A DNA stretch of 63,908 bases, the filler included, from Octopus bimaculoides (taxonomy: Eukaryota), in assembly GCF_001194135.2 (NCBI RefSeq). It is 5 parts of 4 records of this genome, joined end to end, with 100 filler letters (N's around TTAATTAATTAA, not from the genome) between each part and the next. Parts side by side here need not be neighbours in the genome. Positions count along the whole stretch, not along the records: positions 1 to 20,456 come from NC_068990.1; positions 20,557 to 30,345 come from NC_068981.1; positions 30,446 to 49,074 come from NC_069010.1; positions 49,175 to 61,882 come from NC_068992.1; positions 61,983 to 63,908 come from NC_068981.1. One strand, written 5' to 3'. The notes beneath the pieces were generated by a model. The model made no database searches, was not told where the DNA came from, and was given only the letters and a program-made list of their open reading frames with translations. A program made the translations under genes and the position numbers. Shown piece after piece: positions 5,353 to 62,234 of the stretch (within the stretch, counting starts at the first letter, position 1; each line of letters opens with the position of its first letter).

Positions 5353-5440
5353 ATGCAAGATGACCATTTCAAATAGATCCATTTAATTGAACAATGCAAT
5401 CATTATATAAATTTAAATGCAGGTCTATCCTCAGCTGCAT
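5353..5440 (-). ncRNA. Putative type-I hammerhead ribozyme with long stem II (copy 1)
   Basis: Minus strand reads AUGCAG-CUGAGGA-[57 nt]-GAAA-UGGUCA-UC-UUGCAU. Stem I is 6 bp (one G-U), stem III is AUG/CAU, triplet AUC. It lies in a repeat shared with about 24270-24440. Confidence 0.6.
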
Positions 5441-5618
5441 AAATAAATAAACAGAATTTTTTAATCAGTTGGACATATTAATATAATTCTACTCAAATTC
5501 TCTAATAGAGCAAAAAGAGGGAAAAATTGCTTATTTTGATTTTATTCACCTTACTTTGAGTTGTACGGATAATACTGCACTAACTTGGTGCTTCAACTTA
5601 AGTACCTAATTCAACCGA

Positions 5619-5688
<70 letters not shown>

Positions 5689-6010
5689 ATAGATAGGTAC
5701 ATACACAGTTGAATGAAGGCACATGGTGTAGTGTTTGGGGATGTCCCACTCATGATTGTAAGACTGTGGTTTCCTGGACTGTGAGGTATATGTGTTGTTG
5801 AGTAAAAAACACTTCATTTCCCATTGCATCAAATCCACTCAGCACTAAATGAGTTCCACCAATATCTTGGAATTAACTCTGTGAAAGACAGGTCTACTGT
5901 TCAGTGAGTTGTGGTGGGGCAGTTGTAATATCAATCACTTATACACCATGGGAACCAGGGTAAGCTTTGGCCTTATACATCCTTGGGCTCATGAAAAACC
6001 TACGGTATAC

Positions 6011-6090
<80 letters not shown>

Positions 6091-6635
6091 TACCTTCTTT
6101 TAGTTTCTGTGTGTGTACATGATATATAGTATTTTATAGAAGCTGAGAAACTTCACAGACTGTTACTCATATTTCACTTAATTATTATATAGAATTGAAC
6201 TTTTGGAACAATACAATGGTTTATATACAATTTTAAATAATGAAATGGTTATTCTTTGGCAAATAATCAAATAAACATTTAAAGCTGATTAGACAAAGGG
6301 TTATAACATTTCAGAATTAATTGAATCTGTTAGATAATATGACTGACTATTTATGTAAAGCAATATAAATATCAAATAGAAATAAAATACAGTTGAATAA
6401 AACTAATCACAAGCCATTGGCACAGGGTAATAGTTATAATATTTACAGCCAAAGAAAAATTGCAGGCGAGAATCATTTTAGTATTAGTGCATTGGAAAAA
6501 TGCTTTCCATCATATATTCTGGCTATTTATGTCCTGAGTTCAATTCCAACTTCGTCTTTCATTCTTTCATGGTTGATAAAATAAAGTACTAGTCAGATAC
6601 TGGGGTTGATTTAATCAACTAACTCCTTCCCAGAA

Positions 6636-6929
6636 TTCTTTATTTCCAATATCTTTGGTTTGTTGCATGAATTGACCATGTAATTCTTCCTCTTTTCAGG
6701 TATTTATCCTTTCATTATTCCTTCTGTTCTTGAATTCTCCTACAGTTTCAGTAAATATTTTGATATTTCTAGCTGCCAATAATGTACTTTCTTAAGCTTG
6801 CTTCCTAAACACATGGTTCTGGGTTCAGTTCCACTGTGGGGCAGATTAGGCAAGTGCCTTCTGCTATAGCCTCAGGCCGACCAAAGCCTTGTGAGTGGAT
6901 ATGGTAAGTTGTATTCTTTTTATTCTTTT
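6636..6929 (+). repeat. Direct duplication of 7884-8197 (Dong-like fragment fused to SINE A head)
   Basis: ttctttatttccaatatctttgg...gagtggatatggtaagt is near-identical at 6636-6909 and 7884-8157, including the same LINE/SINE junction. Confidence 0.85.
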
Positions 6930-7174
6930 GCTTGTGTTAGAAACAATATTTATTAAGGGCATTGGATTGGCAGAATCAGAGCATCAGAAAAAAATCCCTT
7001 ATTGTATTTGTTCTGAATTCAAATCTAGTCAAAGCCAAAAGCCAACTTTACCTTTCATTCTTTGGAGGTTCATAAAATCAAGTATCAATCAAGTACTAGG
7101 GTAGATGTCTCAACTAAACACGCTGGTCGTGTACCTAAATTAGAAGCCATCATTATTTTTATTATTAAAGCTAT

Positions 7175-58595: not shown

Positions 58596-58823
58596 TCAAC
58601 CATTTCGCATTTAAACTGGCCATACCAGCCCAAATATTTTACCTGTTTTATGTTCAAATCGGCCAGATTTGGCCAATCACACCTACTCTACAAAGTCGTT
58701 CTAAAAATTAAAAAAATCACATCATCAAAATCTTGAAGATATGAGATAATGCATGATTAATTGAAAACAATGTTAACAAATAAGCATTACATTTGACAGA
58801 GTAATCTGAATGTTAGTGGTTAA
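58596..58823. mobile_element. Degenerate piggyBac-type MITE
   Basis: Ends TCAACCATTTCGCATT and AATGTTAGTGGTTAA are decayed versions of a TTAA-CCCTTTAGCATT TIR. Based on recognition of the repeat; single copy in the window. Confidence 0.5.
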
Positions 58824-59895
58824 AATATGAAGCAAATAGCATATTAATAATGAAAAAGTTCAGTTATTTTAGTAAATCATTCCAAATTCTTAATTCAAAA
58901 AATAATTAAAAAGAACATGGACAGTATATTTCATAGAATAAAACATTAGAATAAATACAAAAATTCTTCCCTTACTTTCACTACTTTATACTAATTCATT
59001 CAATAGTCTACTTAATACAATGTCTATTAACACATTTGTTCATCAAAAACTTTTCAGTCAATAATAATGATACAACATAATGTGAAAACATAAAATAAAA
59101 AAAAGATGGAAGCATAAGGAGTTACATTACTAAAGAGGGAGAAACAATTCCTGTAGATATATACTAATCACTGCTTTATTTAATTATTGGTACAACTGTA
59201 CCTTTTAATGTTGAATACATTTCTCTTGACATGAAATCAAATGTCAAAAAGGTCCTTTATCACACGTGCACTGTAGATGAACCCAGTTTAGAAACACTTT
59301 ATACCATCTGGATGATTGAAAGCAAGCATTACAGCAAAACGAAAAGAATAAATTGTAAATTTTTTAACAAGTTTGGCACCTTTCAGTTGATATTGAGTTT
59401 TAATCAGTTGCCATCTGTATGCAGAGATTTCATGAAATAGTTAATTTATTTATTTTTTTTCTCTGGTTATTACAAAATCTCTGAACAAAGGGTTTACTTC
59501 AATGAAACTAAAGCTTAAAAAGTAAAGAGGTGTATGTTGCCATAAGACAAACATTCAGTTATTGCTCTCAGCACTACAAAAATGAAACATGGAACCAGGT
59601 TTTAAGGGAGAAAAGAAACCATAACACAACTTCATGACAAAAATTTCTCAGTGAAAAAAGAAGGAAAGAGACAAGTAGATCTGAAAGATAATGAACCCCC
59701 CCCCCCTTTCCCATCCTCCCAAAATACCATAACATTGGTCAGTTTAATTAGTTTTCTCAGGCCTGAAGAGATTTGCATTGTCCAGTCTAAGTTTTTTTAA
59801 TTTTTTTAATTTTAATCCAATATCTAAAAGACTTCCAATGATACAAATGCTAGCAACATTTCCGTCTCTCTGTGTGTGTAGGTGTGTGTGTATGA

Positions 59896-59940
<45 letters not shown>

Positions 59941-60466
59941 CATTGACCAGGCTATTGGCTGCTGTTGTACACTATTGGTCACAATGTGTTTCCGTGCATT
60001 GTTATAGCTTTTGAATAATGTCATCCAGCTGGTTAGGTTGGTAGGTCAATATTCTCCCAGAATGGAATGCCAGTCCATTGCAAGGTTACCAACTTGTAGT
60101 TGAGTGGACTGGAGCAAGGTGAAATGAAGTGTTTTGTTCAAGAACACAAGCAATGCCCAGTCCAGAAATCAAAACCATGATCTTGTGATTAAGAGCCCAA
60201 TGCCCGTTAGGCAATGTCTTCAAACACATATAGATATATACACTCTCTCACACAAATACAGACAGATCTGTTACAAAGATGATCAAAAGGAGGGAAGCCA
60301 ACAAAATAACAACTATCACAGGAAAAAAAGAATAGCAATCCAAGATTAACAACAACTTAATTACCAATAATTCATGTAGCAAATCAAATTAAAAACAAAA
60401 TTTAAATGCAGTAGAAATTATAACATACTGCATAAGATAAAAGATGACAATGATGATAATGATTGC

Positions 60467-60500
<34 letters not shown>

Positions 60501-61485
60501 TGTAACAAATAAAAAAAAAAAACAGTATGAGATTAACCAGATGTCTTAGATTCTGGTGATGCATGCAATGTTTTTTTTTTTTCCTGATAAATGTTTTTTA
60601 AATTTCTTTAAAAACATACAAGGTCGGTGAAAAATATTAAGTAAAATATCAAATTCCACTTAAGAAAGAATAGAATTGAAATCTTTATTCAATATGTTTG
60701 ATTATATAAAATGATCAATTTTCTTGAGAAAAGCAAATGTCTGCAATAGTATTTGTTTCGTTACATGCAATAATATCCTTCACACTTTATGGGAAATATA
60801 AGAACTTCTTTTCATAATATATATCTTTTTTTATTTTTTGTCTTTTTACTTGGACCACTTTAACCAAGTATTTCTATCCAATTAGTAGTACAAGTCTCAA
60901 ATAATTCACAACCGCATTTGTTCTTTTATTAGGTTTTTAATAAAATAGATTTGTACCACACACCAGAAAACGAAAAGATAAAATCATCTTTTGCAGGAAT
61001 ATTTGTAAATGGTTTTTTTCTTAAAAAAAAAAAAAAAAATATTTTGAAAGAAATTGTACTTTTCTTTTCAAGAAATAAAATATGAGCTAATGTCAGTAGG
61101 ACATGGGATACAGTTGTTTCTAATAGAAAAAATTTGAAAAGATGAAAAGCTTCAGTTTCTGAATTCCTTACAGTAGTAAAGACATATGACAATAATAGAA
61201 AATATTGAAAATAAAAGATATCAATAGCAAATAAAGAAGAGAAAGGGGTAGAATGATCAGTATGACTGAAAGACAGAGGTAAAGTTTTCATTTGAAAAAC
61301 TAAGTAGTATTTTAAACTTTTGAAGTAATAAATATACAACAGTAGTCCCCAGATGGTATGCCACAGTACAGAAGCATGCCTCAAGGTAGCTAGGTGTGTT
61401 ATGAAAACAATTTTATGAAATAATTCTGGTTTTGGAACAGTTAACTTGAAACAAATAAAGCTATACATAACAGCATGTAAATAAA

Positions 61486-61550
61486 GCTGCCTGCAGGACT
61501 TGAACCCAGATCTCCTGTAAACATGACAGGTGGTCTGTCCCATGGCAGCC
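61486..61550 (-). pseudogene. tRNA-like sequence (pseudo-tRNA or SINE head)
   Basis: Minus strand has acceptor GCTGCC/GGCAGC, anticodon-like stem CCTGT/ACAGG with loop CATGTTT (lacks U33) and B box GGTTCAAGTCC. The D arm is too short for a canonical tRNA. Confidence 0.35.
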
Positions 61551-62234
61551 TCAAATTTTTCTATCCCAAAATTTCTTAATGCACAATTACCACACTACTA
61601 TCTATAACTTTACTTGCTTTTAGTTAAACTATTCCAAAGAAAAGAAAAAAAAAATCATATTCTTTCAAAGTTTATAAATTATGATGCCAATAGTAAAATT
61701 ATATTTTTAGAAAGTGAGATTCTAAACACGTCTTAAGAACTAAGCCTATATATTGGTTTCAAATTTTGGTGCAAGGCCAGTAATTTCGGGGGAGGGGTTA
61801 AGTCGATTACAACGACACCACTGCAATTTTACTGACCCCGGAAGGATGAAAGGCAAAGTTAACCTCAGCAGAGTTTGAACTCNNNNNNNNNNNNNNNNNN
61901 NNNNNNNNNNNNNNNNNNNNNNNNNNTTAATTAATTAANNNNNNNNNNNNNNNNNNNNNNNNNNNNNNNNNNNNNNNNNNNNTATATATATATATATATA
62001 TATATATGCATGCATATAGTAAATGCTAGCATACTTGATGTAGTAAATGTTGTTAACCAAGAAATTTTAATTAATAAAAATTAAGTACGCAAAACTGTCA
62101 GAAATGAGTCTCATCATCAACAGTACAGTGATAGTTTTAGATATGTTTCAGACTTATTTGATCTCATCAGCAAAGATGCGATCAAATAACTCTAGTTCTT
62201 ATTACAGATCTTATACAAGTAAGTTAATTATGTG

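What the first reader, a model, noticed from the sequence alone, without database searches (positions are those of the whole stretch)
5353..62174. High density and diversity of minimal type-I hammerhead motifs across unrelated repeat families
Seen: six motifs with intact CUGAnGA/GAAA/UH cores (5353-, 12396-, 13709+, 19027+, 24298-, 45755+), one core variant (11068+) and decayed relics (22695-, 44026+, 51683+, 62136-) in 64 kb. They belong to at least five families with no flanking similarity. In the best-preserved copies stem III is a palindrome, and it differs by family: ACGU, ACUAGU, ACAUGU, ACGAUCGU, ACAGCUGU. Established: a palindromic, loop-less stem III marks the minimal hammerheads of Penelope-like elements, which cleave as dimers. 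Inference: much of the unclassified short-repeat content of this genome may be ribozyme-bearing PLE-derived elements. Family-specific palindromes would act as a dimerisation code that restricts cleavage to same-family partners. A Penelope RT remnant at 17729-18280 shows the mobilising enzyme class is present in this genome.
Basis: partly seen in the sequence, partly recalled or inferred. Interest (0 to 1): 0.85.

Follow-up and report, generated by a model that had tools for sequence, protein, structure and literature searches.

The report
Hammerhead relics of Penelope-like retroelements
This stretch of an animal genome holds about a dozen small hammerhead-shaped self-cutting RNA motifs, likely the mostly decayed tail ends of many Penelope-type jumping-gene families, a known kind of sequence, and one abundant family carries the same change in its catalytic core in most copies.

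Summary
A strict descriptor finds 7 motifs against 0.25 in shuffles (0 of 40 reach it). A covariance model built from outside elements ranks candidate motifs in its top 9 hits. All six 'intact' cores exist, but three have a broken stem; 44026 and 22695 are weak.

The motifs are best read as 3' ends of Penelope-like elements: 13 of 16 have (TA)n just downstream, and inverted pairs match reference loci. This kind, with many families per genome, is published (Cervera 2014; Craig 2021), and this scan found it before in other genomes.

The 'palindrome code' is not supported. Distinct families share palindromes, stem I alone bars 73 of 75 cross-family pairs, and partners normally lie in tandem. Three RNA-seq runs show no cut-site pile-up (weak evidence).

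One new detail: the A6U core at 11068 is family-wide in a high-copy repeat, so that family likely spread with a crippled ribozyme. The RT remnant is supported by eye only.

The parts
5353..5440 (-). Family A motif, core CUGAGGA, long stem II, stem III AUGGUCAU (decayed ACGAUCGU), stem I 6/6; (TA)n 35 nt downstream
   Evidence: 79% identical to 24251-24453
24298..24385 (-). Family A motif, stem III ACGAUCGU, stem I 6/6, weak base of stem II
   Evidence: model E 0.0028
11067..11105 (+). Family C motif with A6U core (CUGUUGA), stem II 4 bp, stem III ACGU, stem I 5 bp; U6 is the family state
   Evidence: read and contig loose-end consensus
13515..13645 (+). Family C copy truncated inside the motif (starts at stem II)
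12397..12458 (-). Family D motif, best C3-G8 example, stem III ACUAGU, triplet GUU
   Evidence: model E 0.00064
13709..13751 (+). Family B motif, stem III ACAUGU; stem II broken by a private C at 13733; element 5'-truncated at 13706
18698..19188 (+). Family B insertion with a 13-bp target-site duplication inside a mariner-like transposase remnant; holds inverted 3' fragments and the motif at 19027-19069 (stem I broken at pair 2)
   Evidence: mariner label by eye, no Pfam hit
17726..18280 (+). Decayed RT-like remnant, probably PLE; catalytic YxDD lost
   Evidence: by eye only; no hit
20864..20908 (+).
4244..4271 (-). Relic sharing stem II with the 20870 motif, inverted next to a 3' fragment of that family at 4342-4433 (+)
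32410..32452 (+).
55064..55107 (-). U3-A8 motif, stem III AGCGCU, one arm of the 205-bp palindrome 55009-55213
   Evidence: arms 98 of 101 identical
55115..55158 (+). U3-A8 motif, the other arm, head-to-head with the first
45755..45806 (+). Family E motif, stem III ACAGCUGU (Hydra-like), stem II 7 bp, stem I lost
   Evidence: compare
51681..51737 (+). Family F motif, stem III ACUAUU (likely from ACUAGU), stem I 4 bp
   Evidence: model E 0.034
51341..51408 (-). Inverted decayed copy of the family F motif
   Evidence: nhmmer E 0.0044
62134..62176 (-). Family G relic, stem III ACAUAU (likely from ACAUGU), stem I 4 bp
22692..22737 (-). Possible relic, core CUGAUAA; not above chance on its own
   Evidence: absent
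44023..44061 (+). Possible old family C relic without GAAA; weak
52911..53039 (-). First part of a Hydra-clade GIY-YIG endonuclease C-terminal remnant
   Evidence: profile iE 6.4e-07; tblastn hits from 90 of 121 relatives, best 51% over 43 aa
53067..53198 (+). Next part of the same endonuclease on the opposite strand (inversion breakpoint near 53050)
   Evidence: profile iE 0.026, tblastn E 0.015 from 1 of 121 relatives

Best explanation
The window holds about a dozen minimal type-I hammerhead motifs from about ten unrelated short repeats, which are likely the 5'-truncated, mostly decayed 3' ends (pseudo-LTRs) of Penelope-like retroelements. Shown: the motifs, their excess over chance, their orientation towards a downstream (TA)n tract, inverted pairs, a PLE endonuclease remnant, and high copy number and stem-restoring variation in family B. 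Inferred: reverse transcription from the element's 3' end often stopped early or flipped strand, leaving 130-470-bp tails in microsatellites. In the parent element two identical motifs in tandem pseudo-LTRs of one transcript would swap strands, forming stem I and the palindromic stem III between copies, and would cut slowly after UH to free the element RNA. Lone genomic copies have no such partner and would rarely cut. Palindromes differ because each lineage inherits its own; they are not a family code.
For: 7 strict hits vs 0.25 shuffled. An outside-built model ranks candidates in its top 9 hits. Anatomy matches the published consensus, including the extra base after A9, G10.1-C11.1 and the U3-A8 core. 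(TA)4+ lies within 170 nt downstream of the cut site in 13 of 16 motifs vs 14.4% background, upstream in 6 of 16. In reference Hydra loci 8 of 12 have a hammerhead 86-200 nt after the ORF, L003 and L006 carry the same motif twice in tandem, and L004 has a head-to-head pair 26 nt apart like window 55101/55121. Hydra-clade endonuclease remnant split by an inversion. Family B reads restore stem II (13733 C>T in 181 of 181, 130 of 137, 114 of 115 reads) and vary at both sides of the first stem I pair at like shares (80 of 154 and 89 of 181; 72 of 115 and 80 of 136; 57 of 98 and 68 of 117); the two window copies carry A-U and G-C there.
Against: No motif in the window is joined to a PLE ORF, and no genome is held to test linkage. 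The RT remnant is unconfirmed. The 170-nt cut-off was chosen after seeing the data and the 16 motifs are not independent. In DNA contigs the two stem I changes have unlike shares (34% and 7% of summed depth), and read tables give no phase. Only families B and C were checked at family level; 36 difference rows were not shown. No cleavage was seen: no read start or end pile-up in 3 RNA runs. Six short motif terms from five families were not found in the Craig 2021 supplement.
Confidence: 0.85

Rival explanations
1. Family-specific palindromes are a selected dimerisation code that restricts cleavage to same-family partners in trans.
For: Seven different palindromes occur, and each bare homoduplex is at least 3.3 kcal/mol more stable than its best heteroduplex. 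8-nt palindromes could pair in trans at micromolar levels (74-88% at 1 uM). Co-oriented same-family copies lie 5.3 kb (B) and 18.9 kb (A) apart.
Against: 5 of 14 Hydra magnipapillata families share one stem III and many stems III are imperfect palindromes. ACGU is shared by different families of one genome in six species of the Cervera alignment. L010 and L012 (ORFs about 70% identical) share a stem III, as do L004, L005 and L008 (76-78%), with different stems I. In the window B/G, D/F and 20870/55121 likely shared one (inferred from single decays). Stem I alone bars 73 of 75 cross-family pairs.
Confidence: 0.07
2. Some families (C, A, B) are non-autonomous SINE-like or retrozyme-like derivatives that spread on their own with PLE enzymes, not truncated autonomous elements.
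For: Summed contig depth is about 430,000 over the family C motif and 230,000 over B, against 14-36 for single listed contigs (the tool warns this is no copy number). Both A copies span the same ~200 bp. Non-autonomous PLE derivatives are described in vertebrates.
Against: No motif lies in a tandem array, unlike non-LTR retrozymes. B and C copies here have different 5' ends and reads run on upstream, as truncation predicts.
Confidence: 0.25
3. The motifs are chance look-alikes in AT-rich, repeat-rich DNA.
For: With one core mismatch allowed, shuffles give 3-4 hits per window; no Rfam hit; 22695 and 44026 are unconvincing.
Against: 0 of 100 and 0 of 40 shuffles reach the strict counts; model hits; strand-specific (TA)n link; family-level stem restoration.
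Confidence: 0.02

Closest known systems
Minimal hammerheads (min-HHR) in pseudo-LTRs of metazoan Penelope-like elements (Cervera and De la Pena 2014, PMC4209133)
   Same: Type-I layout, CUGAnGA plus one extra base, G10.1-C11.1 in several motifs, loop-less or short palindromic stem III, many families per genome, mostly lone copies, opposite-strand pairs, U3-A8 core.
   Different: Local density looks higher (7 strict motifs in 59 kb; that paper reports about 3,300 in S. mansoni and 9,000 in X. tropicalis genome-wide, with another descriptor). One family has U6 throughout. No ORF linkage or cleavage shown here.
Hydra-clade PLEs (Craig et al. 2021, PMC8557442)
   Same: (TA)n target preference, hammerhead about 100-200 nt after the ORF, ACAG..CUGU-type stem III (45755), U.U mismatch at the base of stem II (family A), inverted 5'-truncated copies, endonuclease remnant of this clade.
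   Different: No window family matched by short-motif search of that supplement; clade assignment of each motif is untested.
Non-LTR retrozymes (Cervera and De la Pena 2020, PMC7229834; bioRxiv 10.64898/2026.07.22.740005)
   Same: Short non-coding repeats with a type-I hammerhead, probably PLE-derived.
   Different: Retrozymes are tandem arrays giving circular RNAs; all motifs here are lone or inverted.
Natural hammerhead core variants (Perreault et al. 2011, PMC3088659)
   Same: U3-A8 covariation; U10.1-U11.1 mismatch; a position-6 variant (A6C, kobs below 0.1 per min).
   Different: A6U is not in that paper's main text, and there the variant was rare; here it is the state of a high-copy family.

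Membership tests
PLE minimal hammerhead (min-HHR) | Core CUGAnGA or UUGAnAA, GAAA and NUH in type-I order | tested here: met
   12 of 13 scored motifs; 11068 has A6U
PLE minimal hammerhead (min-HHR) | Stems I and II can form | tested here: inconclusive
   Stem I of 4 bp or more in 11 of 13; 13709 and 62136 have no stable stem II and 51683 folds otherwise. Family B reads restore stem II.
PLE minimal hammerhead (min-HHR) | Palindromic stem III with no or short loop | tested here: met
   9 of 13 perfect, 2 with one G.U, 2 with one mismatch
PLE minimal hammerhead (min-HHR) | Located in the pseudo-LTR 3' of an RT/GIY-YIG ORF | tested here: inconclusive
   No ORF adjacent in the window; no genome; family patterns found no loci. 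Context matches reference loci.
PLE minimal hammerhead (min-HHR) | Self-cleavage as a dimer | not testable with these tools
   No end pile-up in 3 apparently unstranded RNA-seq runs for families B and C; weak test
Non-LTR retrozyme | Head-to-tail tandem repeats, each with a hammerhead | tested here: not met
   No tandem array of period 25 or more overlaps a motif
Non-LTR retrozyme | Abundant circular RNA | tested here: inconclusive
   No back-joint at a cut site among the 12 joints listed for B and C; library type unsuited
Hydra-clade PLE (remnant 52911-53198) | C-terminal GIY-YIG of Hydra type | tested here: met
   clade name by eye against the alignment
PLE reverse transcriptase (remnant 17726-18280) | Significant match to PLE RT | tested here: inconclusive
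   No hit; only a Hydra-clade profile was available; motifs seen by eye
Rfam hammerhead families | Reaches gathering score | tested here: not met
   0 hits

The most novel reading that the evidence does not exclude
Family C spread to roughly ten thousand copies with U in place of the conserved A6 while keeping stems I, II and the ACGU palindrome, because the hammerhead fold and its dimer, not cutting, are what the Penelope machinery selects. The family-wide U6 itself is well supported (loose-end consensus from 539, 397 and 280 reads, agreement 0.83, from contigs, and from the window copy). The selected-fold reading is untested; a parent element that simply lost catalysis explains the data as well.
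Probability: 0.12. Interest if true: 0.65.

Novelty: new member of a known kind. Interest (0 to 1): 0.3.

Why it matters
As it stands, it gives a cheap way to classify short unlabelled repeats as Penelope tails, and shows that descriptors limited to CUGAnGA miss the best-formed motifs here (4 of 7 strict hits are U3-A8) and a whole abundant family (A6U). What hammerheads do for Penelope elements is still open (passage). A genome with about ten co-resident families, one amplified with a likely crippled core, is a good place to test whether cutting is needed for spread. A true palindrome code would have been new, but the evidence runs against it.

Tried and rejected
No whole genome is held. Rfam: 0 gathering hits; the E-value list shown was filled by microsatellite-driven miRNA models. 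No RNA holder was listed among indexed runs, which is no evidence either way. Exact family patterns found nothing in metagenome, prokaryote-genome or viral contigs, and the Hydra alignment found no relative in viral contigs. Pfam found nothing for the remnants or for P0003, P0005 and P0008; word-based homolog searches failed. One of the 3 hits (P0004) is a WD40 protein and was dropped as spurious. The idea that family C is the 3' end of the published octopus Naiad was dropped: no motif match and none seen in its 3' region. Retrozyme reading rejected for lack of tandem arrays. Flank z-scores were inflated by (TA)n and not used; one search replaced them. Lunse et al. 2017 is not held. No structure or complex prediction was run.
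Full report
Setting. The window has 59,372 called bases at 35% GC with 4,536 N and is crowded with microsatellites and dispersed repeats. The runs that hold it carry a coded species label. 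From memory its commonest dispersed repeats look like octopus SINEs; this is recalled and untested. No genome is held, so genome-wide claims could not be tested.

Noticed in passing
window 55009-55213: Near-perfect 205-bp palindrome made of two head-to-head U3-A8 hammerhead motifs; same layout as in reference locus L004.
   Followed up: yes
window 52911-53198: Hydra-clade GIY-YIG tail split into two oppositely oriented halves, ending at a (TA)n tract and a gap.
   Followed up: yes
window 13335-13478: A further multi-copy repeat with read support; on the minus strand it has a CUGAU start followed by a short perfect hairpin but no GAAA. Possibly another decayed hammerhead family.
   Followed up: no
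window 12365-12506 (-): The family D motif is enclosed by a 9-10-nt GC-rich inverted repeat, and a second CUGAUGA lies 30 nt upstream of the core.
   Followed up: no
window 5353-5440 and 24298-24385 (-): In both family A copies a CUGCAU just after the core could pair with the 5' strand of stem I, an alternative fold that might block the ribozyme.
   Followed up: no
window 21299-21801: 500-bp element with long imperfect terminal inverted repeats (73% self-identity), flanked on one side by (TA)n; MITE-like.
   Followed up: no
window 30446-31634, 33210-34060, 40140-42530: Decayed non-LTR retroelement remnants next to (TAA)n tracts; by eye and from memory of the R4/Dong type.
   Followed up: no
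window 8580-9580, 18400-19380, 44600-45150: Decayed Tc1/mariner-like transposase remnants by eye; the second is split by the family B insertion.
   Followed up: partly
L001-L012: Twelve contigs in prokaryote genome assemblies carry Hydra-clade Penelope-like ORFs with hammerheads, likely animal host DNA in the bins; L004 and L012 hold several different hammerhead families within 3-5 kb.
   Followed up: partly
window 20501-20512, 30390-30401, 49119-49130, 61927-61938: The same 12-nt AT-only palindrome sits between 44-N runs four times, likely an assembly linker artefact.
   Followed up: no
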